A stretch of 55,907 nucleotides of DNA, taken from the NCBI GenBank assembly GCA_964475375.1, contig CAYYWI010000006.1, positions 1-55,907 on the forward strand, written 5' to 3'. Positions 35,790-55,192 of this stretch are shown piece after piece. The position numbers were made by a program, and so were the translations under genes. The DNA is from an uncultured Dehalococcoidia bacterium (lineage in GTDB: Bacteria; Chloroflexota; Dehalococcoidia; UBA2247; RBG-13-53-26). How positions within the stretch are numbered: position 1 is the stretch's first letter; each line of letters begins with the position of its first letter. Below the pieces are notes generated by a model, which saw nothing but the letters and a program-made list of their open reading frames with translations, ran no database searches and had not been told where the DNA came from.

Positions 35790-36620
35790 CTACGAACTGC
35801 GCGGGGGGAGGTCGATCTCAGCCTCCCTCCTCTTGGGCCTCTTCAACACGTACCGGCTGCGGACCAAGTTCCACTTGGACCCCGTCATCATGAAGTACCT
35901 CTTCATTTCCCTCGGCCCCGGGTGCACTGTGAAGGAGTAGATCAGGTTCGGGTTCCAATTGTCCACGCCGTAGACTCCGATACGGTTTATGCTTAGATAC
36001 TCCTGGTTGCGCAACATCCAGCGGTCCTGCACCAGGAGCGACACTCCGAGGGTCTCCTGAAAAGCGGGGATGACCAGACCGTAGTCGTGGTCAACGCCGT
36101 TCTTCTCGCGAAGCTCCGCGAGTTTCCTGGCCTTGGACAGTGCAGCCTCGTCGCAGCGCTCAGCCAACTCGAGGAAGAAGCCGTGCCCTTGAAACTCAAA
36201 GTAGAGTTCGACATCATCCCGCTCCACCTGGCTGTAGCCCTTATCATGAAGCAGATGAGTGAAAGAATCCTGGAGATAGGCTCTGGCAGCCTCATCATTC
36301 TCGAACCCTTCCTGCGAACGCAGAGGGAGGAGGACCGCCAGCGGCGGCTGTTCAATCTCAGCCGTGGCTGCCCGTTTCTTCTCCTCTGATTCAACCGCGC
36401 CTTCGCAATGGAACAGGTCGGAGAGTTCCTCGCCCTTGTCGTTGATGAACCGGATGCTCAGCAGCAGAGCCACGCCTCCCGGCGTCTTCTTCCGCTCCAG
36501 AATGGCGAGGTTCTTCACCACGAAGCTGGCAGGAAGAGGCAGCTTAATGTACACGCCCTTTTCAGCAAAGGTATTGTTTATCTCTGCCACGGTAAGCATC
36601 TTGTCACCCGGCTTGTTCAT
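35790..36620 (-). CDS. hypothetical protein (276 aa)
   Basis: Long non-repetitive ORF with a TATAAT-containing module immediately upstream. No family recognised. Confidence 0.5.
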   Translation of the reverse strand: MNKPGDKMLTVAEINNTFAEKGVYIKLPLPASFVVKNLAILERKKTPGGVALLLSIRFINDKGEELSDLFHCEGAVESEEKKRAATAEIEQPPLAVLLPLRSQEGFENDEAARAYLQDSFTHLLHDKGYSQVERDDVELYFEFQGHGFFLELAERCDEAALSKARKLAELREKNGVDHDYGLVIPAFQETLGVSLLVQDRWMLRNQEYLSINRIGVYGVDNWNPNLIYSFTVHPGPREMKRYFMMTGSKWNLVRSRYVLKRPKRREAEIDLPPRSS

Positions 36621-37737: not shown

Positions 37738-37810
37738 TCGATATCCGATGAGCGTCAGGTCTACGACCTCACTTGCTTGCTGGTCCGGCAAGCTGAATCT
37801 GAACGCAGGA

Positions 37811-38024: not shown

Positions 38025-39065
38025 ATGATTGAGGGACTAAGGGAGACCATTCTCAAGTCAGCCACCGAAGGCAGAGACATGCTTTCGGTCATAGTGGGAC
38101 AAGAGGATGCCAAGAAGAAGATTCTGGCCTCGCTGCTGGCAGGCCATCACGTGCTCATCGAGGGACCGCCCGGCGTAGGGAAGACCACATTGGCCAAGCA
38201 CATAGCGGCCGCCTTGCCTGCCATCTCCGCCGTGAAGGACTGCCCCTACCATTGCAACCCGGAAGCGCCGGTGTGTCCACAGTGCAGAGTAAAGAAAGCA
38301 GCAGGTGGGAAGCTGGAGAGCATCACCATCCAGGGCGAACAGCGATTCATCAGACTGCAGGGCTCGCCCGACCTCACCGCTGAGGACCTGCTGGGAGATA
38401 TCGATCCCACTCAGGCCTTCAAGTACGGCCCTCAGGACTACCGGGCCTTCATACCGGGGAAGCTGCTCAAGGGCAATCGCGGCGTCGTCTTCTTCGACGA
38501 ATTGAACCGGGTCACCGAGAAGCTGCAGAACGCTCTGCTGCAGGTTCTCGAAGAGGGCATCGCCACCATCGGGCCTTACGATGTGGATTACCCCGCTGAT
38601 TTCGTGATGATCGCCACCATGAACCCCAGGGAACGCGCCGGCGTGGAAGAGCTCTCAGATGTCCTCCTCGACAGGTTCGACGTGGTCAAGATGGGCTACC
38701 CGGAAACCGCAGATCGCGAGAAGGAGATCCTCCTGAAGCACGGCCTGAGGATGGACAACATCAAGGTTCCGGACGATGTCGTCAACAGCGTGGTTGCCCT
38801 GGTCAGGGCCACCCGGGAAGAACCCTGGTCAAAGGAACTGGACCAGGCCGCCAGCGTGCGGGCCACCTTGTCGCTCTACGAGAAAGTGCAGGCTGTGGCG
38901 AGCCTGGAGAATCGGTCGGAGGCCACTGTCGATGACATCAGGCAAATGGCAGCCTCTTCGCTGGGCAGCCGGATCAAGCCGTCTCCCGAGTCCAAGTTCT
39001 ACGACTCCCAGATCGACTTGATCAACGAGCTGCTGGATAACGTTCTGGATGGCAGGCAAAGATGA
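38025..39065 (+). CDS. ChlI/BchI(MoxR)-like AAA+ ATPase with 4-Cys insert
   Basis: VIVGQEDAKKKIL...IEGPPGVGKTT (Walker A), VFFDELN (Walker B) and ATMNPRE...LLDRFD (sensor / Arg finger region). CPYHCNPEAPVCPQC insert follows Walker A. AGGAGG RBS before ATG 38025. Confidence 0.8.
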   Translation: MIEGLRETILKSATEGRDMLSVIVGQEDAKKKILASLLAGHHVLIEGPPGVGKTTLAKHIAAALPAISAVKDCPYHCNPEAPVCPQCRVKKAAGGKLESITIQGEQRFIRLQGSPDLTAEDLLGDIDPTQAFKYGPQDYRAFIPGKLLKGNRGVVFFDELNRVTEKLQNALLQVLEEGIATIGPYDVDYPADFVMIATMNPRERAGVEELSDVLLDRFDVVKMGYPETADREKEILLKHGLRMDNIKVPDDVVNSVVALVRATREEPWSKELDQAASVRATLSLYEKVQAVASLENRSEATVDDIRQMAASSLGSRIKPSPESKFYDSQIDLINELLDNVLDGRQR

Positions 39066-39826
39066 CCGTCAGAGGATTGTCCATCGCACTGTCGGGAAAA
39101 GGCGGGGTTGGCAAGACCTTCATCTCAAGCACGCTGATCAAGCGTCTGTCCGAGCATGGATCAGTGCTGGCCATCGATGCCGACCCGGACTCCAATCTGC
39201 CTCAGGCGTTGGGAGTGAAGGTGACCAAGAGCGTGGGCGAATCCCGCGAAGCTATCATCAACGCCCCGGCCCGCAGCGCCGTTGCCGCCTCCAAGCAGGA
39301 GCATTTGGAACTATCCATTCATGAGTCAATAGAGGAATTCCCCCAATTCGACATCATAGTCATGGGCCGCTCCGAAGGAGAAGGCTGTTACTGCTCAGTC
39401 AACCATGTCATAAGGCAGGTGATCGACACCAGGGCCAGAGGCTACGACTTCACGGTGATCGACTGCCATGCCGGTCTGGAGCACCTCAGCCGGCGGACCA
39501 CGCGCGATGTTGACATCATGCTGGTAGTGGTCGAGCCCACCAACAATGCGTTCCATACGGCCAGAAGAGTCATGGAGATATCCAAGGAACTGCTGATTCA
39601 GTTCGGCGCTATACTGGTGGTGGTCAACCGCGTTACGCCGGAGAACAGAGCCCGCGCTGAACAACTCGCCAGGGAGAATGGGGTGGAGATAGCCGTCTAC
39701 GTCCCGTTTGATCCGGTGGTAGCGGAATATGACGTGATGGGCAAACCGGTCAGCGATATTCCCAGGGATTCCCCCGCCGCCAAAGCCATTGACGAGATCT
39801 GCCAGAAGATTCTCAGCTATGCCTGA
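39062..39826 (+). CDS. cooC: CooC/AcsF-type Ni-insertion P-loop ATPase (CO dehydrogenase maturation factor)
   Basis: Deviant Walker A SGKGGVGKT, IDADPDSNL and the CxC metal motif (EGCYCSVN). Its start overlaps the previous stop (ATGA). Confidence 0.85.
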   Translation: MTVRGLSIALSGKGGVGKTFISSTLIKRLSEHGSVLAIDADPDSNLPQALGVKVTKSVGESREAIINAPARSAVAASKQEHLELSIHESIEEFPQFDIIVMGRSEGEGCYCSVNHVIRQVIDTRARGYDFTVIDCHAGLEHLSRRTTRDVDIMLVVVEPTNNAFHTARRVMEISKELLIQFGAILVVVNRVTPENRARAEQLARENGVEIAVYVPFDPVVAEYDVMGKPVSDIPRDSPAAKAIDEICQKILSYA

Positions 39827-42053
39827 TTCCGGACACAAGAAGTTGCTCAGACAAGAAATCATCAAGACACTCTTCAGACTTGGCCCGGGCGGGCTGAGCC
39901 GTTCAGTTTTTGGCGATCTCGAACTGCAGGACTCTGAGAAGCAGGATCTGCTGAGCAGCATCTGCAGCGGCCATCACCTGATGATCCTCGGCCCGCCCGG
40001 AAGCGGCAAAACCAGCGTGGCCGGCAACCTCTGGACTGTTCTCGGCGACATTGAAGTAGTCGAGGGCTGCCCCATGAACTGTGCGCCTGAGGACGCCTCG
40101 TGCCCGTGGTGCCTGGAGAGGAAAGCCAAAGGCGAAACCCTTCGCAGCACAACCCTCCCGGCAGAGAAGAGAATGACAAGAGTCCAGGGGAGCGGGGGAC
40201 TGATGGTCGAGGACCTCATCGGAGACCTCAACCCGGAGGTTGCCTTGAAGAAAGGCATTTACTCTCCCGAATCCTTCATGCCCGGCAAACTGCTGAGGGC
40301 CAACAGAGGAATACTGCTCATAGACTTCATCGACAGGGTGCCGGAGCGTGTGCTGAACGTGATCATGTATGCCGTGCAGGGCGGCAGCATCAGCATCGGC
40401 GTCCTGGAGCACAAGATTGAACTGGACACTCTGGTGGTAGCCACCGGCGGCGAAGACACGTTGAAGGGGCTGTCGCTGGATTTCCTGGACAACTTCGACG
40501 TCGTTCGCCTGGGACACGTGGAAGACCCGCAGAAGCAAAAGAGGATAGTGCGGAGCCGCATGGGCAAGGAAGCCGGGACGCTGAGTGACGATGTCCTGGA
40601 GCAGGCCATCCGGATTGTGAACGAGACCAGACACCATATGGAAGTTGAGCGAGGCGTGGGCACGCGCGGCATGATCAGGAACGCTGAGTACCTGGCCCGC
40701 CTGCCGGAGCTGGGCTACGACGGTGAAGACACGATGCTGGCCGTTGCCGCCAACGTATCGCTGCCACACCGCCTCAAGCTGTCCGCTGAGGTGGACCTGC
40801 CGGGCAAAAGAGAAGAGATTATCGATGAGATCGTGAGCAAGGTCACCGGCGAGGTGAAAACCCACAAAGAGGAACTGGCCGTTCTCACCAAAGAGGACGT
40901 GCTGGCCCTTGTAGAAGAGATCGCCAGAGAGGACAAGCTGCGGAAGCCTCTGAAGTACGGCGCGTTCGACCTGCTTCTCAGGAGGATCAAGAGGTTCCCC
41001 GATACCAGGCTGGCCAAGCTTTACCACGACATCGCTGCCCGCCTGCCGGAACTCTATCCGGAGAGGTACAAGGCCGACAACCTGGACGATGCGCTGCTGC
41101 TGGAGGTCGAGGAGTATCGGAAGGAGAAGGAGAGGATCGCACAATTTCTGGAGCAGCAGGCGCTGGCCAAGACGCTGGAGTTCCTGGAGAAGCAGGACAT
41201 CCTGGAACGCACCAGCAGCGGATGGATGCTGAGCCAGCGTGGCATCAACGTGCTGCTGGAGAAGCTGACACCGCGACTCGACGAGGGCGCTAATCTTTAC
41301 GGTTATGGCAAGCACGCTTCGGGCAAGAAGCTGAGCCTGGGAGAAGGCCGGATAGTCGGCACACGGCACTACAGGTTCGGGGACAAGTACCGCGACATCT
41401 CGTTCAGGGACACAGTGAGAGAAGCCATCCGCAACCGGAGGCAGCATATCACCAGAGAGGACATACTGGTCAACATCAAGGACATCCGCACCAGGATGGA
41501 TATTGTGCTGGTGATCGACGTGTCCGGCACCATGCTGCAGTTGGAGAAGTTCTGGTTCGCCAAGGAGAGCGCCATAGCCCTCACGCTGGCGGCAACCACG
41601 TACAAGGATAGGGTGGCCGTCATCTCATTCTCCAACCTGGCCGATGTGGTGGTCGATCTGACCGCCAGTCCTCATAAGGCAACGCGGAAGCTGATCGACC
41701 TCGAACTGCACGAGAACGCCTTCACCAATATCGGCTACGGCCTGTCAAAGGCCTGCGAGCTTCTGGAACATCATCCCAAGGGCAGGGCAAAGCAGCACGT
41801 TATTCTCATTTCCGACGGTGACGCCACAGCTCCCCATCCATCTCCGCAGAAGTACGCGCTGAGGCAGGCGGCCAACGTGGCGCGGCGAGGCATCACCATA
41901 TCCTGCATCTGCATCAACCAGCGCTCCGCCGACCCGGAGCTGATGAGAAGGATCGCCAAGACCGGCAAGGGAAGGATATATCTCATCGGGGCCGAGGAGT
42001 TGTCGTCAACCGTGCTGGAGGAAGCAGCGGCGGCGCGCGCTTCCGGTGGATGA
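39819..42053 (+). CDS. ChlD/BchD-like protein: AAA+ domain (4-Cys insert, degenerate Walker B) + helical linker + C-terminal vWA/MIDAS domain
   Basis: ILGPPGSGKTS, then CPMNCAPEDASCPWC insert, then LLIDFID in place of hhhDE. C-terminal IVLVIDVSGTM...ISDGDAT is a vWA pattern. ATG 39819 overlaps the cooC stop (ATGCCTGA); the track ORF starts at 39789. Confidence 0.8.
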   Translation: MPDSGHKKLLRQEIIKTLFRLGPGGLSRSVFGDLELQDSEKQDLLSSICSGHHLMILGPPGSGKTSVAGNLWTVLGDIEVVEGCPMNCAPEDASCPWCLERKAKGETLRSTTLPAEKRMTRVQGSGGLMVEDLIGDLNPEVALKKGIYSPESFMPGKLLRANRGILLIDFIDRVPERVLNVIMYAVQGGSISIGVLEHKIELDTLVVATGGEDTLKGLSLDFLDNFDVVRLGHVEDPQKQKRIVRSRMGKEAGTLSDDVLEQAIRIVNETRHHMEVERGVGTRGMIRNAEYLARLPELGYDGEDTMLAVAANVSLPHRLKLSAEVDLPGKREEIIDEIVSKVTGEVKTHKEELAVLTKEDVLALVEEIAREDKLRKPLKYGAFDLLLRRIKRFPDTRLAKLYHDIAARLPELYPERYKADNLDDALLLEVEEYRKEKERIAQFLEQQALAKTLEFLEKQDILERTSSGWMLSQRGINVLLEKLTPRLDEGANLYGYGKHASGKKLSLGEGRIVGTRHYRFGDKYRDISFRDTVREAIRNRRQHITREDILVNIKDIRTRMDIVLVIDVSGTMLQLEKFWFAKESAIALTLAATTYKDRVAVISFSNLADVVVDLTASPHKATRKLIDLELHENAFTNIGYGLSKACELLEHHPKGRAKQHVILISDGDATAPHPSPQKYALRQAANVARRGITISCICINQRSADPELMRRIAKTGKGRIYLIGAEELSSTVLEEAAAARASGG

Positions 42054-42163
42054 CAGGAGATTATGGTCGTGCCGAAAGTCCTCCCTGCGATCGCTCCTCA
42101 CGGGCAAGCTCCGCTTCGCCCGTGCCACCCGTCTAGGGTGTGCAGAGGAGAAAAGCCCCTTTG

Positions 42164-42234
42164 CCGAGGGTCTGGGGGTGTCCCTCAGTTTAATCCCCCT
42201 CAGTCCCCCTTTGCGAAAGGGGATTCAGGGGGTT
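42164..42234. repeat. hairpin repeat, family B copy 1
   Basis: ccgagggtctgggggtgtccctcagtttaatccccctcagtccccctttgcgaaaggggattcagggggtt. Core hairpin is tccccctttgcgaaagggga. Confidence 0.85.
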
Positions 42235-42307
42235 CAGAACGAGTTCTGAGACAAAGGCGTCAGGTCCAAGACCTGACAGCCACGAAAGAGGTGCAGGATG
42301 CTTCCTG

Positions 42308-42380
42308 CCGGGAGTCTGAGGGTGTCCCTCAGTTCAAATCCCCCTCAGTCCCCCTTTGCGAAATGGGGATTCAGGGGGTT
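42308..42380. repeat. hairpin repeat, family B copy 2
   Basis: ccgggagtctgagggtgtccctcagttcaaatccccctcagtccccctttgcgaaatggggattcagggggtt. A near-identical direct copy 144 nt after B1. Confidence 0.85.
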
Positions 42381-42395: not shown

Positions 42396-43622
42396 ATGAA
42401 CAAGACTCTAGTCTGCACCGGCTGTGGCTGCCTTTGCGACGACATTCAGGTCGAGATTGAAGACGGCCGCCTTGGAAAGACGGAAAACGCCTGCGCCAAA
42501 GGCGCAGCCTATATCCAGTCAGCCTTCAACACCGAGCGTCGCCCGAAGAGCAGCATCAAAGGCCGGAGCTGCACCACGGATGAGGCGATCGAGGAAGCCG
42601 TCCGGCTCCTTTCCAGAGCCAAAAAGCCTCTCATATTCGGCCTGGACAATTCGACCGTGGAGACTCAGGGCCTTGCAATTGAGCTGGCCCGGAGGCTTGA
42701 GGCGACTCTTGACGATTCTTCGTCGTTTTCCTACGGACCTCTCGTCGAAAAAATCCTCACTGGAGAGCTGCCCAACTGTTCATTGTCCCAGTTGAAAGAC
42801 AAGGCTGACCTGCTTCTGTACTGGGGAGCCAATCCCACCGCCACCCATCCCCGGCACCTCTCCAAGTACACCTACTACGCTTACACCGATTTCACCCCGG
42901 CGGGGTGGTTTCCCAAGGTTACGCTCACTTCTATCGATGTCCGTCAGACCGAGCTGACGGCAATGTCCAAGCCCTCCTTTAAGATTAAACCCGGCAGCGA
43001 TAGAGAACTGATCGCGGGCCTCTTGCACGAGTCACCGGAATCTATAGCGAAAGCGAAACTGCTGGCAGAACTGATCACGAAATCCAAGTTCTGCGCCATG
43101 TTCTGCGGGCTGGGTCTGGTTCATTCCCTGGATGGCGACTTCGGCAGCTTCACCAAAATGGTCGGCATGCTCAGTCAGTCGCTTCGCTTCGCCGTGATCC
43201 CGATGATATCCGAGACCAACATGCTCGGATTTAATCAACTGCTCCGAAAAGAGATTGGTTATGTCAACCAAGTCAGCTTCGCCAACGGCATTTCTCACGG
43301 GCGCGAGTTCTCCTTTGCGGAGCAGGTACAGAACCGCGCCTCGGACTGCATACTGATCGTCGGCTCTGACCCCTTCACCATGCTGCCCCAGTCGCTCATG
43401 GGCAATCTGCGAAACACCAACATCATCTGTCTGGATCACTCATCCACGCTGACCGCACAGGTGGCCGACGTCGTGATACCCACATCGGTGCCGGGCTTGG
43501 AGTCAAGCGGCAGCATGGTACGTTTTGATGGGGACAACATCACTCTGGCGGAACCGATCAGGAACGGATACCCGGCAGAGGCGGAAGTCCTCAGGCAACT
43601 TCTGGAGAAGGTGCGGCCATGA
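42396..43622 (+). CDS. fwdB: formylmethanofuran dehydrogenase subunit B-like molybdopterin/tungstopterin oxidoreductase
   Basis: N-terminal VCTGCGCLCDDI Fe-S motif and ~410-aa size, characteristic of FwdB/FmdB. LLLYWGANPTATHPRH region present. Confidence 0.75.
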   Translation: MNKTLVCTGCGCLCDDIQVEIEDGRLGKTENACAKGAAYIQSAFNTERRPKSSIKGRSCTTDEAIEEAVRLLSRAKKPLIFGLDNSTVETQGLAIELARRLEATLDDSSSFSYGPLVEKILTGELPNCSLSQLKDKADLLLYWGANPTATHPRHLSKYTYYAYTDFTPAGWFPKVTLTSIDVRQTELTAMSKPSFKIKPGSDRELIAGLLHESPESIAKAKLLAELITKSKFCAMFCGLGLVHSLDGDFGSFTKMVGMLSQSLRFAVIPMISETNMLGFNQLLRKEIGYVNQVSFANGISHGREFSFAEQVQNRASDCILIVGSDPFTMLPQSLMGNLRNTNIICLDHSSTLTAQVADVVIPTSVPGLESSGSMVRFDGDNITLAEPIRNGYPAEAEVLRQLLEKVRP

Positions 43623-44020
43623 CATCGCCACAGCAAGGCATCCGGCTCATCATCGTGGCTCACGATGATGCCCATCTGTCCATCGTGCAGCAGAAGGAAG
43701 GATGGGGAGATGCTTACCAGAAGAAAGCTGCCGTCCTGCGCCTTTCCCCGGCTGACATCAAGAAGCTGAGCCTGAAGGACAGCGCCAGGCTCGAGCTTGT
43801 CAGTCCCGCAGGATCGATAGTCATCAATGTGAAGATGGACAGCACATGCCAGGAAGGCACAGGCTGCATGGCTTTCAGCCTCTATACGAACCGCCTGGCC
43901 GGCTACGATCCAAAATCGTCGAGATTACCGGGCACCAGGCACATTCAAGCCCAGGCCGTACCTACCGACAAGAACATCACGCCACTATCAGATCTGTTTG
44001 TGAGAAGGGATCTTGCCTAA
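43619..44020 (+). CDS. fwdD: formylmethanofuran dehydrogenase subunit D-like (molybdopterin dinucleotide-binding beta-barrel)
   Basis: 133 aa with ATGA overlap to the fwdB-like gene. VLRLSPADIKKLSLKDSARLELVSPAGSIVINVKMD...EGTGCM pattern of the MopB C-terminal domain. Confidence 0.65.
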   Translation: MTSPQQGIRLIIVAHDDAHLSIVQQKEGWGDAYQKKAAVLRLSPADIKKLSLKDSARLELVSPAGSIVINVKMDSTCQEGTGCMAFSLYTNRLAGYDPKSSRLPGTRHIQAQAVPTDKNITPLSDLFVRRDLA

Positions 44021-44510
44021 AAAAGAGCTTCAGCCGCTGCAAATATACAGGTTGCTGCCGCGCACCAACTGCAAGAAATGCGGCTCGGCCACCTGTTACG
44101 CTTTCGCTTTTGACCTCATAAGCCGGGGTAAGAAGCCCGAGGGTTGCCCGCCGCTGCTGACAGAGGAATTCGGCGAGTCGTACCTGATGCTCAAGGAGAT
44201 GCTGGGCGAAGGCGAGCTCATCAAGGGAACCGAGCACGTCCTGGACAAGTCACGGTGCACCGGCTGCGGCGACTGCGTCACCGTATGCAACAGAGCACTG
44301 ACTACCATCACAAAGGGAGGCCGCTTCTCACAGCGAGCATCCGTGCCGCCGCCGCTGAAGATTGTGGACGGCAACCTTCAGGTCATACAGTGGTCGAGCT
44401 GCAAACGAGCCACTCCGGGTCTGGACATCTGCAACCTCTGCGCTGAGAAGTGCCCCTTCAGCGCGATAGACCTGGTCAAGCCTGAAGAAGAAGAGACGGA
44501 AGAAGACTAG
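44013..44510 (+). CDS. Fe-S protein: AcsC/RnfB-N-terminal-type [4Fe-4S] domain plus ferredoxin-like Cys motifs
   Basis: LLPRTNCKKCGSATCYAFA matches the Fe-S motif of the corrinoid Fe-S protein large subunit and RnfB N-termini. CTGCGDCVTVC and CNLCAEKCP motifs lie downstream. TTG start. Confidence 0.7.
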   Translation: MPKKELQPLQIYRLLPRTNCKKCGSATCYAFAFDLISRGKKPEGCPPLLTEEFGESYLMLKEMLGEGELIKGTEHVLDKSRCTGCGDCVTVCNRALTTITKGGRFSQRASVPPPLKIVDGNLQVIQWSSCKRATPGLDICNLCAEKCPFSAIDLVKPEEEETEED

Positions 44511-46990
44511 TCGCTCTTCTTCTGCTTCTTAACGCTGTTCGGCAACAACCTCTGCAGATGGCAATGGTACCGGCCGAGCTCCATGCCATAGCTGGTGTTG
44601 AACTCTGAGAGAGTCAACAGCTTGCCATCGCGGTTCCGGGCCTTGGTGACCTTCAGCATGTCGCCTTCCCAGCCATGCTCATCCCGCAGTATCTTGAGCA
44701 GCTTGATGCGGTGCCTGGTCGGTATGTCCAGGTGAGACCGGATCAACAGATGCCAGTCCTCAGGCAGCTCATTGTAGAAGATTCGGTAGAGCTCCAGGTA
44801 GAAGTCCATGCGCGCCGCCCGGCCTTCCCTCATCTCCGAGGTGCTGAAGAACATGCGCGGAATCATAGTGAGGGCCTCTTCCTTGGTCTCCACCGGAACC
44901 AGCAGATGCTCCGGAATAGGCTCGGTCTCTCTCTTCTTCCCATCGTCTCCGTGGTACACAAACCACTTGCTGCGGTCGTACCTGTCCCCAACCATGTATC
45001 GGCCCCAGGTCAGTCCGGAAGCAGGCCCCACCACCACCCTGATCCCCAGCCGGGCATACGCTGCAGCCACAGCATACATCCGGTCGGGCAAACCGCCCCA
45101 CAGCAGCAGTGAGAACGTGGTGTACAGCGATCCCTCACCGACCTCCGGTATTCCACCATACAGTGGGATACCGCCTGCCGCACGCGAGTACATGTACATG
45201 TTGTTGGCCAACGAGATAGCCGCGCAGCCGCCGCAGTTGATCAGCGATCGCGGCTCGATGGACGCCAGGTAAGGCTCGAAAACATACTTGCCCTTGCTGT
45301 CGATGTAGTGTCTGGCCAACTCAGACGCACCGCATCCCGCCGTGAAGACGATGCAGTTCCTTCTGGTCAGCTCATATGCCAGCCAGCCGATCTCTTCGCG
45401 AGGTGCATCGCCGCAGCCCGCTATGATCACGATACCCGGAGCATTGCCCCAGACCATGGAGAAGGCCGACTGCAGTATCTCGGTGAGCGGCAGCGGTCCT
45501 CTGCCCGGCCTCATAACGAACTTGTCCTTGGCCGCTTGCTTTCTCTCAGCAGCAACGATGATGTCGCGCACTTGTATCTTGGACGGGCAGGCAGCTTCAC
45601 ACTTGCCGCAGAAGAAGCAGCCCTTCTCAACCTCAAAGAACGTCTCCCACTTGCCGGCGCTGAGGGACTTCAACGCCTTGGAAACCGGCAGGTCGTTCGG
45701 ACAGGCCATAGAGCAGAGGTCGCAATTGGCCTGGCACTTCTTCGTCTCGGCCACGGCGGCATCGTCACTCATGACATGTGCGGTCCGCTTCACCGTCTGA
45801 GCCACTTTGACCGCCACCTCAGCGGCCTTCTCAGCATCTCTGATCCAGGCGGCCTTCCCGCCGCCAACCAAGTCACCAACTATCTTGTCAACCGCCACGT
45901 CCGTGCTGTCGGCAACGCCGGAAACGCCGTTCGATCCCACCCAGATAAACTTGCTGTCCACTCGGGCAGCCTCGGACGCCAGATCCAGCGGCATGCACGA
46001 AGCGCTGGCCACAACCACATCGAATACACCGTTCCTGATGGCCTTGCCCGCACGCACCATAGGCGCTATGATATGGCCCTTATCATAGAAACGGACAATG
46101 TCATCGCCGGCAGGCCCGATTCCGCAGATCTCCACCTTGTCCAGAGACCCGGCCTTCTTCAGCAAATCAACGGCGCACCACGCCGGCAGGAAATCATCGC
46201 CGGCAAAGGCGATAACCGGCTTGCCCGCCTGTATTGATGCAAAACCTCCGGTCACCTTGGCTGGAGGGAAATTCTCCAGTTCGTCGATCTTCTGCTTCGC
46301 CGCAGAGATGAAGCCGAAACAGGACACCTTGAGCATCTCAGCAACGCCCATAGCCAGCAAAAGGATCGAACCGGCGTGCATCGTCATGCTCTCAAAGCCG
46401 GCCGCATCGCCTGTCCCCGAGAAGCTGGCGGACACGAGCTTGCCCAGTTGCACCTCACCATAGGAGAGAGCCCGATTGAGCTGCTTGAGCGTCTTCACCG
46501 GTATGCCGCTCACCAGACCCACGGGAGGGCAGGAATCAGACATGGTCAGGAGATCGCCCATGCTGACCGGCGTGTCCTCGCTGTGCAGCTTCAACGCGTA
46601 GTTCATCAGGCTTCGCGTGGCGACCATCTGGCTTGCGCAGCCGCGGCAAGCCTTTCTCAGACTCAACCGGCCCTGATATGCGTCGAAGCTCAGTCCGCAA
46701 TTCCCATTGCCTTCTTTCAGGTTGCACGGCCCCAGGCCACAATCGGTGCAGACTCCTTGAGGGCTGGCGTACAGCGGCTCGTATCTCTCCAGCAGAGCGC
46801 GATCCCAGTCTTCCAGATCAGCCGACTCCGGCATTATGTTCAGAGAGGCACCGAATTGCGCGTAGCGGCTCTCAACAAAGTCCTTCTCCAGAATCTCCTT
46901 GACTATGTCCTCGATACCGCGTGGATCACGCACCACTTGTCTTATGTCAACCTTATGCGGTCCAACATGTGCAATCCACTTATCTTCCAC
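44507..46990 (-). CDS. cdhA: archaeal-type CO dehydrogenase/acetyl-CoA synthase alpha subunit (CdhA), copy 1
   Basis: 827 aa. N-terminal Cys cluster (CTDCGLGPC...CGLSF...CRGC) and an inserted 2x[4Fe-4S] ferredoxin module (CQANCDLCSMACP, CFFCGKCEAACP) typical of CdhA rather than CooS. GTG start with GAGGAG RBS. Confidence 0.85.
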   Translation of the reverse strand: MEDKWIAHVGPHKVDIRQVVRDPRGIEDIVKEILEKDFVESRYAQFGASLNIMPESADLEDWDRALLERYEPLYASPQGVCTDCGLGPCNLKEGNGNCGLSFDAYQGRLSLRKACRGCASQMVATRSLMNYALKLHSEDTPVSMGDLLTMSDSCPPVGLVSGIPVKTLKQLNRALSYGEVQLGKLVSASFSGTGDAAGFESMTMHAGSILLLAMGVAEMLKVSCFGFISAAKQKIDELENFPPAKVTGGFASIQAGKPVIAFAGDDFLPAWCAVDLLKKAGSLDKVEICGIGPAGDDIVRFYDKGHIIAPMVRAGKAIRNGVFDVVVASASCMPLDLASEAARVDSKFIWVGSNGVSGVADSTDVAVDKIVGDLVGGGKAAWIRDAEKAAEVAVKVAQTVKRTAHVMSDDAAVAETKKCQANCDLCSMACPNDLPVSKALKSLSAGKWETFFEVEKGCFFCGKCEAACPSKIQVRDIIVAAERKQAAKDKFVMRPGRGPLPLTEILQSAFSMVWGNAPGIVIIAGCGDAPREEIGWLAYELTRRNCIVFTAGCGASELARHYIDSKGKYVFEPYLASIEPRSLINCGGCAAISLANNMYMYSRAAGGIPLYGGIPEVGEGSLYTTFSLLLWGGLPDRMYAVAAAYARLGIRVVVGPASGLTWGRYMVGDRYDRSKWFVYHGDDGKKRETEPIPEHLLVPVETKEEALTMIPRMFFSTSEMREGRAARMDFYLELYRIFYNELPEDWHLLIRSHLDIPTRHRIKLLKILRDEHGWEGDMLKVTKARNRDGKLLTLSEFNTSYGMELGRYHCHLQRLLPNSVKKQKKSD

Positions 46991-47279: not shown

Positions 47280-48650
47280 TTACCCTTCGTCAGGCCAGTC
47301 TTCGCCCGGAAGAGGCAGTTTCAACGGCTGCGGTTCTCCGTTCTTCCAGAACAGCTTTGTTATCGGATGCCCGTTCTTGCTCAGTAATTCCTTAAGCACC
47401 CCGACGTCCAAGGTCTCTTCATTGGTAATAATCTTGTCGTAGACCTCTTCCGGGATCACGTCCGCAATATCCCGCTTAAGGTCCGCCGGCATCCAGACTA
47501 TCCTGTTCCAGCCGCCGTCGCCCTTGAGGAAGTTTTTGCTCGCCATGCCGGCGATAGAGAGTCCCTTGAATCCATGATTCTGGGCGCCGCCGGAGATGGT
47601 CCCCGCCAAAGTAGAGAACTTGACACCGAGCGGAGTCATGCCGGTGTATCGCCGCATGGCCAGGCCGATGCCGTCCACTTCCGGTATGTAGAAGGATGCT
47701 GCTTCGAAGCATCCGCAGTTGGTCGTCGGGTACCTTATGCTGCTGTAGATGTTCACGCGGTTGACCAGATGATTGCATCTCTCCCATATAGCCTGGTCCA
47801 CGCCGGTATAGTGTCCCTTCTGTTTATCCAGACATTCACCCTTGGGGATGGTGAAGACATATCCTTCCGGGTCTATCTCCGCCGTCACCTTGGCCGAGTC
47901 ATAGCCAATGATGCCGCAGTATGGCAGAGCGCTGGGCGTAAGAACACAGGCATGGTTCGGCGCCAGGGACTTGCAGATGGTGCAGCCATAGAAATTCTCG
48001 ACGTCTTCGTCGTCATAGAGCTCCTTGGCGCTGATGATCTTGAATTTCTCTTTGGCCCAGTCCACCAGCGGATTGATCATCTCAACACCGCCGACCTCCG
48101 GAGCGCCAACTGCCCAGAAGAAGGCTATGGAATCCACCTGAGGCATCAGCGTCTTGGCCGTGGCGTAGCAGAACTGGGAAATCTTGGCAAAGGTCAGCCT
48201 CTTGGAGACATCCTTGCTGATACGTATCCAGAGGGAATCCGGCGTACCGAAGAGCATGAAGCCCTCGATACCCTGGAGAGCAGTCCCAATCTGTCTGGAG
48301 ACATAGCCCTGGTGCTTCTGGGTCAAGGTCTTGCCATAGATCCTGATAGTGAAAGCACCCGGCAGCGAAGTGCCCGGCGCTACCTCAGATATGTCAGGGC
48401 CGATGAGTTTGACTTCCCCGTCTTTCACCTTCTCCGGGTCTTCCTCGATGTAGAAGATGGAGAACATCTTGTAGTCCCACTTCGGGCCACCCAGCTCGAT
48501 GTGCATGTCGGCCTTCTTGACTTCGCTCAGCCACCTCAACCCAAGTCCAATGTCGTCCAGGCCATCCCATAAATGTTCAAGATCGGTGGGTAACTGAAAA
48601 ATTCTCCCCGGCGGGAGCTTGGATACTGCTTCTTCCTCTGGAATAGCCAT
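47280..48650 (-). CDS. cdhC: acetyl-CoA synthase / ACDS beta subunit (CdhC), copy 1
   Basis: A-cluster ligand motifs GCTICKSLAPNHACVLTPSALPYCG and NCGCFE. The 456-aa size fits the archaeal-type short form. Confidence 0.85.
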   Translation of the reverse strand: MAIPEEEAVSKLPPGRIFQLPTDLEHLWDGLDDIGLGLRWLSEVKKADMHIELGGPKWDYKMFSIFYIEEDPEKVKDGEVKLIGPDISEVAPGTSLPGAFTIRIYGKTLTQKHQGYVSRQIGTALQGIEGFMLFGTPDSLWIRISKDVSKRLTFAKISQFCYATAKTLMPQVDSIAFFWAVGAPEVGGVEMINPLVDWAKEKFKIISAKELYDDEDVENFYGCTICKSLAPNHACVLTPSALPYCGIIGYDSAKVTAEIDPEGYVFTIPKGECLDKQKGHYTGVDQAIWERCNHLVNRVNIYSSIRYPTTNCGCFEAASFYIPEVDGIGLAMRRYTGMTPLGVKFSTLAGTISGGAQNHGFKGLSIAGMASKNFLKGDGGWNRIVWMPADLKRDIADVIPEEVYDKIITNEETLDVGVLKELLSKNGHPITKLFWKNGEPQPLKLPLPGEDWPDEG

Positions 48651-48751: not shown

Positions 48752-49354
48752 CTATCTGGTCTCCTGCTTGAATTCCCACTTACAGTGGACTTCATCCTTG
48801 CTCTGGCGGCAGCCCGCCCTCAAACACCTCACCTGGATGTCAGGATTCACCGGCCTCACATAGGCCTTCATAGCTTCGTATTCCAGGACCTTGCACACCC
48901 AGTCCAGATGCTCCAGGTCACCCTGCATCTCCATGGCATTGAACGCAGGACAGTAGTGGACGGTAAGGATTGCATGGTTCCTGTTCTTCAGATCGAAATC
49001 GTATTTGTAGTAACCCTGGGCAAACGAGCCCATCAGTTGCGTTGCCTTGATATAGGACTCCACATCATTGCCCTTGATATTAGCCGCCTCCATGGCCCAC
49101 ACTGTCTCATACTTGCCGATCCTGGTCCAGGTGGACAGAAGGCATTCCCTCTCCACATCGCGTCCCAGGCGCTTGCGGACTTCCGCCGCCCAGTACGTGG
49201 GAAGTACGTTCACCTCTCTGGAATAGGCAAGCAGCAGCTTGACCAGCACTTCTTTGGAGAAGTCCTCATACTTCAAGTTGGGGATGTACGGTCCGCTATA
49301 GTCCTTCAGTTCCATTCGGCTCCTCTGCAAAGCGGGGTTGTCAGGGATGTCCAA
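48752..49354 (-). CDS. hypothetical protein (200 aa) upstream of cdhC
   Basis: Clean ORF on the same strand, 100 nt upstream of cdhC. Not similar to CdhB epsilon as I remember it. No family assigned. Confidence 0.55.
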   Translation of the reverse strand: MDIPDNPALQRSRMELKDYSGPYIPNLKYEDFSKEVLVKLLLAYSREVNVLPTYWAAEVRKRLGRDVERECLLSTWTRIGKYETVWAMEAANIKGNDVESYIKATQLMGSFAQGYYKYDFDLKNRNHAILTVHYCPAFNAMEMQGDLEHLDWVCKVLEYEAMKAYVRPVNPDIQVRCLRAGCRQSKDEVHCKWEFKQETR

Positions 49355-51660: not shown

Positions 51661-52152
51661 CTACGTCCTGTCCTTTGAGACCTGCTTCGGCGTTTTCGCC
51701 AGCGCGGTCACCTGGCCGACCCAGTGCATGCTGCAGATACCAGCGTATGCCTTGAGGTTGGCGATTGCCTGCCCGATACCCGCCTCCGCGACCGCTACAC
51801 CTGCCACCGGCTTCGATTCGAGATGCGGCCAGATGGGACACGTTCGGTCCATGAAGTTCTTCAGCAAGCCGGAGAGCATATCGAAATAGACAGGTGTGCC
51901 GAGCACGAAGCCGTCCGCCTTCATCAGCACAGGATAAAGCTGCTGCATGTCATCCTGAATGTGGCAAGAGCCCTTTCGCTCAGTTCCGCCCACCTCACAG
52001 CTCAGGCAGCCGTCGCAACCCTTGATATCCTTCTCGCGGAGCAGGATCAGCTCAGTCTCCGCTCCCACCTTGGCCGCCTCATCCAAAAGCTTTCTCAGCA
52101 TCCATTCCGTGTTGCCTTTCCGGGGAGAGCCGCAGATGCCAACGATCTTCAT
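51661..52152 (-). CDS. isf: iron-sulfur flavoprotein (Isf) / NADPH-dependent FMN reductase family
   Basis: MKIVGICGSPRKGNT flavodoxin-like P-loop and a compact Cys cluster CDGCLSC...C. Confidence 0.75.
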   Translation of the reverse strand: MKIVGICGSPRKGNTEWMLRKLLDEAAKVGAETELILLREKDIKGCDGCLSCEVGGTERKGSCHIQDDMQQLYPVLMKADGFVLGTPVYFDMLSGLLKNFMDRTCPIWPHLESKPVAGVAVAEAGIGQAIANLKAYAGICSMHWVGQVTALAKTPKQVSKDRT

Positions 52153-54976: not shown

Positions 54977-55192
54977 CTAGTCAACGAAATCCACTTCCTT
55001 CATGCACTTTTCGCAAACCTTCTGCTTCTTCATACCCGACTTCAAAGGGCTGGTCAGTACGCCCAGCACTCTCTGTCCCGGGTTCTCTATGGCTACCTCT
55101 TTCAAACACTCAGCGCAGAGAGGAACGCCGCAAACGCTGCACTTCTCTTCCGCCGGCTTCTTCTTGCATACACCACATAACTTCTCTGTCAT
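54977..55192 (-). CDS. 8-Cys zinc-ribbon/B-box-like small protein (71 aa), copy 2
   Basis: GGAGGTGG RBS. CGVC, CSVC, CAEC and CEKC pairs at the same spacing as copy 1. Confidence 0.6.
   Translation of the reverse strand: MTEKLCGVCKKKPAEEKCSVCGVPLCAECLKEVAIENPGQRVLGVLTSPLKSGMKKQKVCEKCMKEVDFVD

What the first reader, a model, noticed from the sequence alone, without database searches (positions are those of the whole stretch)
38025..42053. Translationally coupled ChlI-like AAA+ / CooC / ChlD-like AAA+-vWA operon without a chelatase large subunit, next to CODH/ACS genes
Three genes are stacked with overlapping start and stop codons (ATGA at 39062-39065; ATGCCTGA at 39819-39826):
- A BchI/ChlI-type AAA+ ATPase with an intact Walker A and B.
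- A CooC-type Ni-insertion ATPase with GKGGVGKT and the CxC metal motif.
- A BchD/ChlD-like protein with an AAA+ domain, a long helical linker and a vWA domain carrying a MIDAS-like DVSGT.

No ChlH/CobN-type porphyrin-binding subunit is present. The nearest enzymes are Ni-Fe-S proteins (two CdhA/CdhC modules) and a FwdB-like protein.

Established precedents pair an AAA+ MoxR/ChlI protein with a vWA protein to mature or reactivate metallo-active sites. Examples are BchI/BchD, CoxD/CoxE for Mo-Cu CO dehydrogenase, NorQ/NorD and CbbQ/CbbO.

Inserting CooC between such a pair suggests an undescribed three-component, ATP-driven machine. It could insert nickel into, or repair, the C-cluster or A-cluster of archaeal-type CODH/ACS.
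Basis: partly seen in the sequence, partly recalled or inferred. Interest (0 to 1): 0.8.

Follow-up and report, generated by a model that had tools for sequence, protein, structure and literature searches.

The report
Chelatase-like motor beside variant CODH/ACS
Three tightly coupled genes (a chelatase-type AAA+ motor, a CooC nickel-chaperone ATPase and a ChlD-type adaptor) are a conserved accessory set of an uncharacterised, active-site-altered relative of CO dehydrogenase/acetyl-CoA synthase, and most likely build or activate its metal centres.

Summary
The functional link to CdhA/CdhC holds. Of CdhA-seeded loci of the window's active-site type with at least 5 kb on both sides, 17/19 carry the ChlD-like gene. 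ChlI-CooC are adjacent in 49/49 non-redundant loci, and ChlD often sits in CdhC-ChlD-zf-CdhA.

The partner is not a canonical archaeal CODH/ACS. All about 130 linked CdhA-like genes lack the C-cluster His and first Cys (Inoue et al. 2019 groups A-4/A-6). No corrinoid subunits are present, and the window's FwdB-like protein has Ser-Tyr where FwdB has its Cys-His. The ChlD-like AAA+ module is degenerate, like BchD. One trio serves two CdhC-zf-CdhA modules. A 276-aa protein (35790-36620, minus strand) is a fourth conserved partner.

Best reading: a ChlI/ChlD (NorQD-, CoxDE- or chelatase-type) motor-adaptor coupled to CooC that inserts metal into, or activates, this variant enzyme. This is inference only. 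The gene order is listed in a 2019 supplementary table but is discussed nowhere that I could find. In 13 related loci the CdhC Cys-Gly-Cys nickel motif is TGA-GGN-TGA, probably Sec-Gly-Sec.

The parts
35790..36620 (-). Conserved 276-aa protein of unknown function; fourth accessory partner
   Evidence: No Pfam or NCBIfam hit. It is 38-50% identical to the 258-281-aa proteins inside related clusters, which lie directly upstream of ChlI in L002 and L036. All 73 homologues are 'hypothetical'. The AF2 model has pLDDT 82, with weak Foldseek similarity to NucS/EndoMS (prob 0.99, TM about 0.3).
38025..39065 (+). ChlI/BchI-type AAA+ ATPase (motor), catalytically intact, with a Cys4 insert
   Evidence: It is 62-90% identical across phyla. 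The insert CPYHC...CPQC has no counterpart in the solved cyanobacterial ChlI sequences shown aligned (8osf, 6l8d).
39062..39826 (+). CooC-type P-loop metallochaperone ATPase (GKGGVGKT, C-x-C)
   Evidence: CooC1 3kje, E 8e-21. Walker A is conserved in 54/54 and CxC in 55/55 related genes. It is adjacent to ChlI in 49/49 non-redundant loci.
39819..42053 (+). ChlD/BchD-type adaptor: degenerate AAA+ with Cys4 insert, helical linker, MIDAS-VWA
   Evidence: Only about 6-10 full-length representative clusters exist at 50% identity among 1.84 billion proteins.
42162..42367 (+). Two copies, 144-145 bp apart, of a roughly 60-nt element in the ChlD-FwdB spacer; the 107-aa ORF 42063-42386 is probably spurious
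   Evidence: No Rfam match. Relatives have no such spacer.
42396..43622 (+). FwdB-like molybdo/tungstopterin subunit with Ser-Tyr in place of the Cys-His of FwdB
   Evidence: TIGR03129 scores 338 bits (cut-off 328). The alignment to 8rja_B places 'svCHGP' opposite 'sfSYGP'. The position varies among relatives.
43619..44020 (+). FwdD-like (Molydop_binding) subunit
44013..44510 (+). Small Fe-S protein (PF04060 FeS domain plus ferredoxin motifs; no corrinoid-binding part)
   Evidence: Syntenic in relatives.
44507..46990 (-). CdhA-like subunit 1, structural group A-4 (His to Asp265, first Cys to Pro293, acid-base His to Gln)
   Evidence: TIGR00314 scores 464 bits, below the cut-off of 781. The alignment to 8riu_A is and the signature DGPCCCC. 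The definition of A-4 is in PMC6344411.
47037..47258 (-). 73-aa Cys8 zinc-finger (B-box-like) protein, always just upstream of CdhA-like
   Evidence: Synteny.
47280..48650 (-). CdhC-like (ACS beta) subunit 1 with A-cluster ligand motifs intact
   Evidence: 9c0s_E E 4.5e-80. C-x2-C...C...C and C-G-C are present.
48752..49354 (-). 200-aa protein (weak DUF6125), conserved in the Dehalococcoidia versions of the cluster
51661..52152 (-). FMN_red flavoprotein downstream of CdhA-like 2
   Evidence: Syntenic in relatives.
52330..54828 (-). CdhA-like subunit 2 (His to Asp, first Cys to Ala)
54977..55192 (-). Second zinc-finger protein (71 aa)
55212..55907 (-). CdhC-like subunit 2, C-terminal 231 residues; the gene runs off the window end

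Best explanation
The trio, with the 276-aa protein, is the dedicated accessory (maturation or activation) module of an uncharacterised metalloenzyme. That enzyme is built from an A-4-type CdhA-like subunit, a small zinc-finger protein, a CdhC-like subunit and, usually, FwdB/FwdD-like and Fe-S subunits.

Proposed mechanism (inferred, not shown):
1. The ChlI-like protein forms the ATP-hydrolysing AAA+ ring.
2. The ChlD-like protein docks on that ring through its hydrolysis-dead AAA+ module.
3. The ChlD-like protein uses its MIDAS-VWA domain to grip the apo-enzyme, most likely the zf/CdhA-like/CdhC-like unit.
4. The CooC-like dimer carries the metal (nickel, by analogy) on its C-x-C site.
5. ATP-driven pulling or twisting by the motor opens the buried cluster site so that the metal is inserted.

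This follows what is proposed for NorQD and for the ChlI/D-type chelatases. One motor set serves both paralogous CdhC-zf-CdhA modules of this genome.
For: Shown:
- Translational coupling of the three genes.
- Intact catalytic motifs in ChlI-like and CooC-like, and a degenerate but conserved AAA+ plus an invariant MIDAS in ChlD-like.
- ChlI-CooC adjacency in 49/49 non-redundant loci. ChlD is directly followed by zf-CdhA in 36/78 loci and flanked as CdhC|ChlD|zf in 19.
- In loci seeded by CdhA (blind to the trio) with at least 5 kb on both flanks, 17/19 Asp-type CdhA have ChlD, 16/19 CooC and 14/19 ChlI.
- In loci seeded by ChlD with at least 5 kb flanks, 14/20 have CdhA. For those at least 53% identical to the window protein it is 10/10.
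- The locus of the A-4 type specimen OIP92259 (L032) carries the trio.
- The trio persists in clusters that lack FwdB (L002, L034, L058).
- One trio accompanies two enzyme modules here and in L074, L082 and L083. In Deltaproteobacteria ChlD-like is duplicated per target while ChlI is single (L105, and the three loci of MAG CSMAG_2994). This is the behaviour expected of a shared motor with target-specific adaptors.
- Foldseek places the AAA+ part nearest NorQ (E 2.6e-12), BchI, CbbQ and MoxR.

Precedents:
- NorQD drives Fe insertion by a twisting mechanism (PMC13036017).
- CobSTN motor-adaptor-target assembly (bioRxiv 10.64898/2026.07.21.739949).
- CoxD/CoxE for the CuSMoO2 cluster (PMC4240915).

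The CdhC-like nickel ligands are under strong selection: Cys-Gly-Cys is kept or replaced by TGA-GGN-TGA.
Against: - There is no experiment, no expression data and no cultured host. All 61 genome loci are from MAGs.
- Synteny cannot separate biogenesis from activation, or from a stoichiometric structural role.
- The target subunit and the metal are unknown. The CdhA-like C-cluster site lacks two canonical ligands, so it may not bind Ni-Fe in the known way.
- ChlI-CooC also sit next to FwdB-FwdD-FeS, 480 kb away from ChlD-CdhA in one genome (L148 versus L003/L120).
- Exceptions exist. L088 has two Asp-type modules and no trio within 8.5 kb. Asn-type (A-6) clusters mostly show no trio in the available flank (0/3 with at least 5 kb). 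L036 has the trio without CdhA, next to cobU/cobS. Thirteen ChlD-like paralogues stand alone.
- The 276-aa partner has a nuclease-like fold that this model does not explain.
Confidence: 0.55

Rival explanations
1. The ChlI/ChlD pair is an activase or conformational motor, not a biogenesis factor. Like CbbQ/CbbO on Rubisco, it would remodel the mature enzyme to release an inhibited or oxidised state, or drive a step of the catalytic cycle. CooC would re-supply lost nickel.
For: The synteny evidence is the same as for the best explanation. CbbQ is among the closest folds (5c3c). The tight translational coupling and very high conservation of ChlI-like (62-90% identity across phyla) would suit a constantly used partner.
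Against: One trio serves two enzyme modules. The trio can lie 480 kb from the enzyme genes or be absent from the flank (L088). CooC proteins are known as maturation factors (established knowledge; PMC13056359).
Confidence: 0.2
2. The motor and CooC serve the FwdB/FwdD-like molybdo/tungstopterin module, or the assembly of the whole multi-subunit complex, rather than the nickel sites of CdhA/CdhC.
For: ChlI-CooC are often contiguous with FwdB-FwdD-FeS (window; L006, L105, L031, L117). In one genome they stay with FwdBD while ChlD stays with CdhC/CdhA. FwdB co-occurs with 14/19 Asp-type CdhA.
Against: The trio is kept in clusters with no FwdB (L002, L034, L039, L058). ChlD, the target-binding adaptor, is positioned with CdhC and zf-CdhA. 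CooC-type proteins are not known to act on pterin cofactors (established knowledge).
Confidence: 0.1
3. It is a true class I tetrapyrrole (Co/Ni/Mg) chelatase whose porphyrin-binding partner is encoded elsewhere or replaced by an unrecognised protein such as the 276-aa protein.
For: The best NCBIfam matches are chelatase models TIGR02442, TIGR02030 and TIGR02031. Some outlying loci lie beside cobalamin genes: cobU/cobS in L036, and cobA with a precorrin-2 dehydrogenase-like gene in Ca. Alkanophaga L062.
Against: Scores are far below every chelatase cut-off: 97-122 bits against 467-779. No ORF of at least 900 aa other than RpoC or a helicase lies near any of 78 loci. Linkage is to CdhA/CdhC and CooC, not to tetrapyrrole genes, in the large majority of loci. 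The Fe-S protein lacks a corrinoid-binding domain.
Confidence: 0.05
4. The neighbourhood is coincidental, or the trio is a MoxR-VWA conflict/defence module that happens to sit near CODH genes.
For: There is a weak partial Pfam match to bpMoxR (34 bits, Walker A region only). The 276-aa partner has a nuclease-like fold.
Against: Synteny is conserved over more than 100 non-redundant loci and several phyla. PADLOC gives only generic AAA+ fragments and nothing for CooC, the 276-aa protein or zf.
Confidence: 0.02

Closest known systems
Class I (ATP-dependent) chelatases: BchI/ChlI-BchD/ChlD-BchH/ChlH and CobS-CobT-CobN
   Same: The motor has a ChlI-type AAA+ fold. The adaptor has the ChlD architecture: an N-terminal AAA+-like module that does not hydrolyse ATP, a linker, and a C-terminal MIDAS-VWA. 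The motor-adaptor-target logic matches.
   Different: There is no H/N-type tetrapyrrole-binding subunit. Scores are far below the chelatase equivalog cut-offs. Both AAA+ modules carry a Cys4 insert absent from the solved cyanobacterial ChlI sequences shown aligned. The linker is helical, possibly winged-helix-like, but was modelled at low confidence. A CooC gene lies between the two. The genomic partner is an Fe-S/Ni enzyme.
NorQ/NorD (FeB insertion into cNOR)
   Same: It is an AAA+ motor plus VWA adaptor encoded with the target metalloenzyme. It is the closest structural match of the AAA+ part (9qh8, 9qh4, 9qhd). Metal insertion by mechanical remodelling has been proposed for it (PMC13036017).
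   Different: NorD has no AAA+ module and engages NorQ by a VWA finger in the pore. No separate metallochaperone ATPase is involved. The target and the metal differ.
CoxD/CoxE(/CoxF) of aerobic Mo-Cu CO dehydrogenase
   Same: A MoxR-type AAA+ protein and a VWA protein are needed for post-translational assembly of a heterometal cluster in a folded apo-enzyme (PMC4240915). The ChlD-like protein has a weak VWA_CoxE Pfam match (4e-7).
   Different: The enzyme family is unrelated (a molybdenum hydroxylase). There is no CooC, and the adaptor has no AAA+ module.
CooC (C-cluster) and AcsF (A-cluster) nickel-insertion ATPases
   Same: The middle gene is a CooC-family protein by sequence, Walker A and C-x-C motif, and it is encoded with CdhA/CdhC-like genes.
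   Different: Known CooC/AcsF act without an AAA+ motor or VWA adaptor (no such partner is mentioned in the genomic-context surveys). Here CooC is invariably fused in an operon to a ChlI-like gene, and the target enzyme has an altered C-cluster site.
CbbQ/CbbO Rubisco activase
   Same: A MoxR-type hexamer plus a VWA/MIDAS adaptor acts on a large metabolic enzyme, and the fold is similar (5c3c).
   Different: It acts on a mature enzyme to release inhibitors. No metal delivery is involved.

Membership tests
Mg/Co chelatase I subunit (BchI/ChlI, TIGR02030; TIGR02442) | Reaches the curated family score | tested here: not met
   96.8 bits against a cut-off of 467 (TIGR02030), and 113.9 against 779 (TIGR02442).
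Mg/Co chelatase I subunit (BchI/ChlI) | ChlI-type AAA+ fold with Walker A, Walker B (DE), Arg finger and lid domain | tested here: met
   Pfam Mg_chelatase, AAA_5 and AAA_lid_2. The best PDB hits are ChlI and BchI. The motifs are conserved.
Mg chelatase D subunit (BchD/ChlD, TIGR02031) | N-terminal AAA+-like module, linker and C-terminal VWA with MIDAS | tested here: met
   The linker differs from the usual one: it is helical rather than acidic and Pro-rich. The latter comparison rests on my own knowledge.
Mg chelatase D subunit (BchD/ChlD, TIGR02031) | Reaches the curated family score | tested here: not met
   53.9 bits against a cut-off of 499.6.
Class I chelatase holoenzyme | A ChlH/BchH/CobN tetrapyrrole-binding subunit accompanies the I and D subunits | tested here: not met
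   None is in the window. No ORF of at least 900 aa other than RpoC or a helicase lies in 78 related loci. Whole genomes could not be tested.
CooC/AcsF nickel-insertion ATPases | Deviant Walker A GKGGxGKT/S and a C-x-C metal site at the dimer interface | tested here: met
   The alignment to CooC1 3kje places CYC on Cys112-x-Cys114. The motifs are conserved in 54/54 and 55/55 genes.
CooC/AcsF nickel-insertion ATPases | ATP-dependent Ni binding and delivery to a CODH or ACS | not testable with these tools
   Needs biochemistry.
MoxR/ChlI-VWA metalloenzyme maturation systems (NorQD, CoxDE type) | AAA+ motor and MIDAS-VWA adaptor encoded with, and specific to, a target metalloenzyme | tested here: met
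   Synteny statistics. MIDAS is invariant.
MoxR/ChlI-VWA metalloenzyme maturation systems | Loss of the pair gives a cofactor-deficient apo-enzyme | not testable with these tools
   Needs genetics or heterologous expression.
Canonical archaeal-type CODH/ACS (ACDS) as the partner enzyme | CdhA with complete C-cluster ligands (His, 5 Cys) and acid-base His/Lys, reaching the TIGR00314 cut-off | tested here: not met
   His is replaced by Asp, the first Cys by Pro or Ala, and the acid-base His by Gln. Scores are 464 and 425 bits against a cut-off of 781. This matches Inoue's group A-4.
Canonical archaeal-type CODH/ACS (ACDS) as the partner enzyme | Corrinoid Fe-S protein subunits CdhD/CdhE in the cluster | tested here: not met
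   Only a 165-aa FeS-domain protein is present. None appear in the gene lists.
Acetyl-CoA synthase beta (CdhC) | A-cluster ligands: four Cys of the [4Fe-4S] cubane and the Cys-Gly-Cys nickel motif | tested here: met
   The cubane Cys are kept in 71/71 genes. The C-G-C motif is kept in 60/73, and the other 13 have TGA-GGN-TGA.

The most novel reading that the evidence does not exclude
The ChlI-CooC-ChlD set (plus the 276-aa and zinc-finger proteins) is the assembly machine for a previously unknown heterometal site. In the A-4 CdhA-like subunit the two ligands of the pendant iron of the C-cluster are replaced by Asp and Pro/Ala. The machine would install a different metal or cluster there and load a Ni-Ni (in some lineages Ni-selenolate) A-cluster in the CdhC-like subunit. 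The result would be a new class of CODH/ACS-derived enzyme that works with an FwdBD-like module and without a corrinoid protein. It would therefore catalyse something other than methyl + CO + CoA = acetyl-CoA, for example (de)carbonylation of other acyl-CoAs in anaerobic degraders of the deep subsurface.
Probability: 0.25. Interest if true: 0.9.

Novelty: new variant of a known kind. Interest (0 to 1): 0.7.

Why it matters
How nickel and iron reach the buried C- and A-clusters of CODH/ACS is still poorly understood, and CooC is the only general factor known. Here CooC is hard-wired to a chelatase-type AAA+ motor and a MIDAS adaptor. That gives a concrete, testable model in which mechanical remodelling of the apo-enzyme is coupled to metal delivery, as is now being worked out for NorQD and CobSTN.

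The finding also flags a practical problem. The linked 'cdhA/cdhC' genes of Dehalococcoidia, Desulfobacterales, Syntrophales and Nitrospinae MAGs lack C-cluster ligands and corrinoid subunits. They should not be counted as evidence for the Wood-Ljungdahl pathway or for CO oxidation in metagenome surveys.

The enzyme itself looks like an unexplored branch of one of the oldest enzyme families. It has an A-4/A-6 CdhA, an FwdB-like subunit with variable active-site residues, and in some lineages a probable Sec-Gly-Sec nickel site.

Tried and rejected
- Literature: eight full-text searches for the trio or for Sec-containing ACS found no description of either. Targeted reading of four papers also found nothing: the 2019 and 2026 CODH genomic-context surveys (PMC6344411, PMC13056359), two selenoproteome reviews (PMC13188914, PMC9312934) and a marine CODH survey (PMC13240472). 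The one exception is the supplementary gene lists of PMC6344411. Adam et al. 2018 could not be read.
- Defence-system reading: PADLOC gave only generic AAA+ fragments.
- Regulatory RNA in the 340-bp ChlD-FwdB spacer: no Rfam family. It is a local duplication with copies 144-145 bp apart.
- Promoter/terminator scan of 37100-44600: no more sites than in shuffles.
- Function of the 276-aa protein: only weak NucS/EndoMS-like fold matches (TM about 0.3). No function could be assigned.
- 'Halobacteriota archaeon' as a host: that contig (L041) is 4.9 kb. L002, which I at first took to be archaeal, belongs to a MAG labelled Deltaproteobacteria (L039). Only the Ca. Alkanophaga loci look archaeal, and they carry the stand-alone ChlD-like paralogue.
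- The 107-aa ORF 42063-42386 was rejected as a gene: it lies in repeat-derived sequence, has no family match and is absent from relatives.

Full report
OBSERVATION

ChlI-like is at 38025-39065, with an AGGAGG 7 nt upstream of its ATG. CooC-like is at 39062-39826, and its ATG overlaps the upstream TGA. ChlD-like is at 39819-42053, and its ATG lies 8 nt inside the CooC gene.

Profile and structure-database searches confirm every domain.
- Gene 1 matches AAA_3, Mg_chelatase, AAA_5 and AAA_lid_2 (E 1e-18 to 1e-19). Its closest solved relatives are ChlI (8osf, 6l8d) and BchI (1g8p).
- Gene 2 is closest to CooC1 of Carboxydothermus (3kje, E 8e-21). GKGGVGKT is present and its Cys-Tyr-Cys aligns on the Cys112-x-Cys114 metal site.
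- Gene 3 has a ChlI-like N-terminus and a C-terminal VWA domain (E 2e-17).

In an alignment of 41 homologues the MIDAS residues D567, S569, T571, T636 and D666 are invariant. One correction applies. The AAA+ module of gene 3 keeps Walker A, but it has Phe instead of the Walker B Glu and no arginine finger, throughout the family. It is therefore a non-hydrolysing module, as in BchD.

Both AAA+ modules carry a conserved Cys4 insert. It has no counterpart in the solved cyanobacterial ChlI sequences shown aligned.

No CobN/ChlH-sized gene exists in the window. None lies within 10 kb of any of 78 non-redundant related loci.

SURROUNDINGS

The host is a bacterium. rpoB, rpoC and clpB lie just upstream, and the closest relatives (84-96% identity) come from Dehalococcoidia MAGs.

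Downstream on the same strand are:
- an FwdB-like gene (42396-43622; TIGR03129 338 bits, cut-off 328);
- an FwdD-like gene (43619-44020);
- a small Fe-S protein (44013-44510).

Converging on them is CdhC-like (47280-48650), then a 73-aa Cys8 zinc-finger protein (47037-47258), then CdhA-like (44507-46990). A second copy of the same three-gene module lies at 52330-55907 and runs off the window.

The 107-aa ORF between ChlD and FwdB is repeat-derived and probably not a gene.

THE PARTNER ENZYME IS NOT A CANONICAL CODH/ACS

Both CdhA-like proteins score well below the cdhA cut-off: 464 and 425 bits against 781. Aligned to the ACDS alpha subunit 8riu_A, three changes stand out.
- The C-cluster His is Asp.
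- The first C-cluster Cys (the CC of 'GICCT') is Gly-Pro in copy 1 and Gly-Ala in copy 2.
- The acid-base His is Gln.
- The other four Cys are kept.

This is exactly the signature of 'structural group A-4' of Inoue et al. 2019 (PMC6344411).

All roughly 130 CdhA-like genes recovered in related loci are either this Asp type or an Asn type corresponding to group A-6. None is canonical.

No CdhD/CdhE corrinoid subunits are present.

The CdhC-like subunit keeps all A-cluster ligand motifs.

The FwdB-like protein of the window has Ser-Tyr at the position where solved FwdB (8rja_B) has Cys-His. That the Cys is the tungsten/molybdenum ligand is from my own knowledge. Relatives in Deltaproteobacteria and Nitrospinae keep Cys.

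IS THE TRIO LINKED TO THIS ENZYME?

Yes. I fetched 61 genome loci with the ChlD-like protein as seed. I fetched 79 metagenome loci with the CdhA-like protein as seed. I mapped the window's proteins on all of them. After removing duplicates, 127 loci remained.

- ChlI-like and CooC-like are adjacent in 49/49 loci. Of these, 48 are within 400 bp and one is 435 bp apart.
- The ChlD-like gene follows CooC in 35 loci. It is directly followed by zf-CdhA in 36 of 78. It lies between CdhC and zf-CdhA in 19.
- In CdhA-seeded loci, which are blind to the trio, with at least 5 kb on both sides, 17/19 Asp-type CdhA have ChlD, 16/19 have CooC, 14/19 have ChlI and 14/19 have FwdB.
- In ChlD-seeded loci with at least 5 kb flanks, 14/20 have CdhA. 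For those at least 53% identical to the window protein the figure is 10/10.

The taxa are Dehalococcoidia/Chloroflexota, Thermodesulfobacteriota (Desulfobacterales, Syntrophales, Desulfatiglans-like), Nitrospinae and Spirochaetota. All are MAGs, and many come from tar biofilms, Guaymas sediments and deep aquifers.

The contig of the A-4 type specimen (OIP92259, Syntrophaceae CG2_30_49_12 = L032) carries the full set.

A FOURTH PARTNER

The 276-aa ORF at 35790-36620 (minus strand) has no family match. It is nevertheless 38-50% identical to a 258-281-aa protein present in every well-covered cluster I compared by BLAST (L001, L002, L003, L004, L006). In L002 and L036 that protein lies directly upstream of ChlI.

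Its AlphaFold model (pLDDT 82) resembles NucS/EndoMS only weakly. I cannot assign it a role.

EXCEPTIONS AND STRUCTURE OF THE ASSOCIATION

1. A sub-branch of ChlD-like proteins (46-50% identity) stands alone. Examples lie beside a 2-oxoacid:ferredoxin oxidoreductase (L042) or beside moaA/cobA in Ca. Alkanophaga (L060, L062). Where the assembly is given, the same MAGs also hold a trio locus.
2. L036 has TetR, the 277-aa protein and the trio without CdhA, next to cobU/cobS.
3. L088 has two Asp-type modules but no trio within 8.5 kb.
4. In one 908-kb contig, ChlD stays with CdhC/zf/CdhA (L003/L120). ChlI-CooC sit 480 kb away, directly after FwdB-FwdD-FeS (L148).

The system therefore falls into two sub-modules, [FwdB-FwdD-FeS + ChlI-CooC] and [CdhC-ChlD-zf-CdhA]. 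The trio is also retained in Asn-type clusters without any FwdB (L002, L034, L058).

HOW IT MOST LIKELY WORKS

What is shown is the anatomy and the linkage. What follows is inferred.
- The ChlD-like protein has the architecture of the chelatase D subunit. It combines a dead AAA+ module that can co-assemble with the I-type ring and a MIDAS-VWA domain that grips a partner.
- The fold search puts the AAA+ part nearest NorQ, BchI, CbbQ and MoxR.
- In NorQD the motor remodels the adaptor to enable iron insertion into NOR (PMC13036017).
- In CobSTN the adaptor bridges the motor ring and the substrate-carrying subunit.
- CoxD/CoxE do the equivalent for the Mo-Cu CO dehydrogenase.

By analogy, I propose that ChlI-like is the motor and ChlD-like is the target-specific adaptor. 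The adaptor's gene position points to the zf/CdhA-like/CdhC-like unit. CooC-like would deliver the metal.

Two observations fit an accessory factor rather than a stoichiometric subunit.
- One trio accompanies two enzyme modules, here and in L074, L082 and L083.
- In Deltaproteobacteria the adaptor is multiplied per target while the motor is single.

I put 0.55 on 'dedicated maturation/activation module of this enzyme by motor-assisted metal insertion'. Confidence is lower (about 0.35) that the metal is nickel and that the site is specifically the C- or A-cluster.

RIVALS

- An activase or repair motor of the CbbQO kind (0.2) cannot be separated from biogenesis by genomics.
- A role centred on the FwdBD-like module or on whole-complex assembly (0.1) is kept alive by L148. 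It is weakened by the clusters that lack FwdB.
- A genuine tetrapyrrole chelatase (0.05) is disfavoured by three things: scores far below every chelatase cut-off, the absence of any large subunit, and the dominant linkage to CdhA/CdhC.
- A defence module or chance neighbourhood (0.02) is excluded in practice.

COMPARISON WITH WHAT IS KNOWN, AND NOVELTY

The parts belong to known superfamilies (ChlI/ChlD-type AAA+/VWA, and CooC), but none reaches an orthologue-level cut-off.

At 50% clustering the full-length ChlD-like family has only about 6-10 representatives among 1.84 billion proteins.

I found no paper that describes or discusses a ChlI/ChlD-type pair with CooC and CODH/ACS. The gene order can, however, be read in Supplementary Table 2 of Inoue et al. 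2019. COG1239 is listed there as enriched in Ni-CODH directons in Supplementary Table 4 (FDR 0.022), without comment.

I therefore rate it a new variant of a known kind. It is a motor-adaptor maturation system of the chelatase/NorQD/CoxDE type, permanently coupled to a CooC metallochaperone and dedicated to an uncharacterised CODH/ACS derivative.

SEEN IN PASSING, POSSIBLY IMPORTANT

In 13 of 73 non-redundant CdhC-like genes of related loci, both Cys codons of the nickel-binding Cys-Gly-Cys motif are in-frame TGA (TGA-GGN-TGA). The frame and the conservation continue afterwards, and there are no other stops.

All 13 share a hairpin, AUCCCUCA-GGU-UGAUGGGAU, 21 nt after the second TGA. L058 and L126 carry a variant that keeps the stem paired (UCCAUCA...UGAUGGA). 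All but one of the Cys-type genes lack this hairpin; a second CdhC copy in L102 carries the same sequence.

This is the expected picture for two selenocysteines with a SECIS element. It explains why annotators split these genes in two. Two recent selenoproteome reviews list an HgcA/CdhE-like selenoprotein but no ACS/CdhC.

The window's own genes have Cys. The Sec variants nevertheless argue that this site is a functional metal site that must be loaded.

Noticed in passing
L027:9150-9158, L032:5160-5168, L025:9549-9557, L061:9534-9542, L030:9525-9533, L108:6562-6570, L002:6120-6128, L034:4856-4864, L058:14476-14484, L121:12519-12527, L126:4773-4781, L127:7996-8004, L136:4184-4192: In 13 of 73 CdhC-like genes of related clusters the A-cluster Cys-Gly-Cys nickel motif is encoded TGA-GGN-TGA in frame, followed 21 nt later by a conserved GGU-loop hairpin that all but one of the Cys-type genes lack (a second copy in L102 has it). 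This is probably Sec-Gly-Sec with a SECIS element. It is not listed among selenoproteins in two recent reviews. The window itself has Cys-Gly-Cys.
   Followed up: partly
window 35790-36620 (-): A 276-aa protein without any family match is a conserved member of the cluster across phyla, and lies directly upstream of ChlI in L002 and L036. The model is confident (pLDDT 82), but only weak NucS/EndoMS-like (PD-(D/E)xK) fold matches were found.
   Followed up: partly
window 42396-43622 (+), residues about 108-113: The FwdB-like protein has Ser-Tyr where solved FwdB has Cys-His ('svCHGP' against 'sfSYGP'). Dehalococcoidia relatives have S/A/T plus an aromatic residue. Delta/Nitrospinae relatives keep Cys (C-Q, C-H, C-K).
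   Followed up: partly
window 47037-47258 (-) and 54977-55192 (-): A 71-80-aa Cys8 B-box-like zinc-finger protein lies immediately upstream of nearly every CdhA-like gene where the upstream flank is available (a few loci, such as L096 and L098, show none), and often directly after ChlD. It could be a subunit or a metallochaperone.
   Followed up: no
L042:9983-12187, L051, L053, L060:9983-12232, L062:9911-12178: A paralogous branch of the ChlD-like protein (46-50% identity) occurs alone. Examples lie next to a 2-oxoacid:ferredoxin oxidoreductase operon (L042) or next to moaA/cobA in Ca. Alkanophaga. Where the assembly is given, the same MAGs also carry a trio locus. It may be an adaptor for another target.
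   Followed up: partly
PMC6344411 Supplementary Table 2 (Lachnospiraceae CAG:364 BN627_01608-01612; Firmicutes CAG:227 BN546_00493-00497): A different MoxR (COG0714) and COG3864 gene pair (I take COG3864 to be a VWA-type protein, from memory; not checked) sits directly upstream of clade C-1 CooS-CooF-FNOR genes in gut Firmicutes. An AAA+ MoxR-type partner of Ni-CODHs may therefore have arisen more than once.
   Followed up: no
window 42162-42222 and 42306-42367: A roughly 60-nt element is present twice, 144-145 bp apart, in the 340-bp ChlD-FwdB spacer that relatives lack. There is no Rfam match. It creates a spurious 107-aa ORF.
   Followed up: yes
window 18317-19408, 20041-21171, 21462-22634 (+): Three consecutive full-length FtsZ paralogues (Tubulin + FtsZ_C) lie in a row.
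   Followed up: no
(P0329, P0335, P0341 and similar, 560-970 aa): Many proteins match only the linker + VWA half (profile positions about 390-730) of the ChlD-like family, with other N-terminal parts. The wH-like linker plus VWA may be a mobile adaptor cassette.
   Followed up: no
L001, L003, L004, L042, L148 flanks: The clusters are repeatedly flanked by acyl-CoA genes: acyl-CoA dehydrogenases, family III CoA-transferases, thiolase/DUF35, methylmalonyl-CoA-mutase-like + B12-binding, OYE and BcrAD/HGD-D. This hints that the enzyme acts in anaerobic acyl-CoA catabolism rather than in autotrophy.
   Followed up: no
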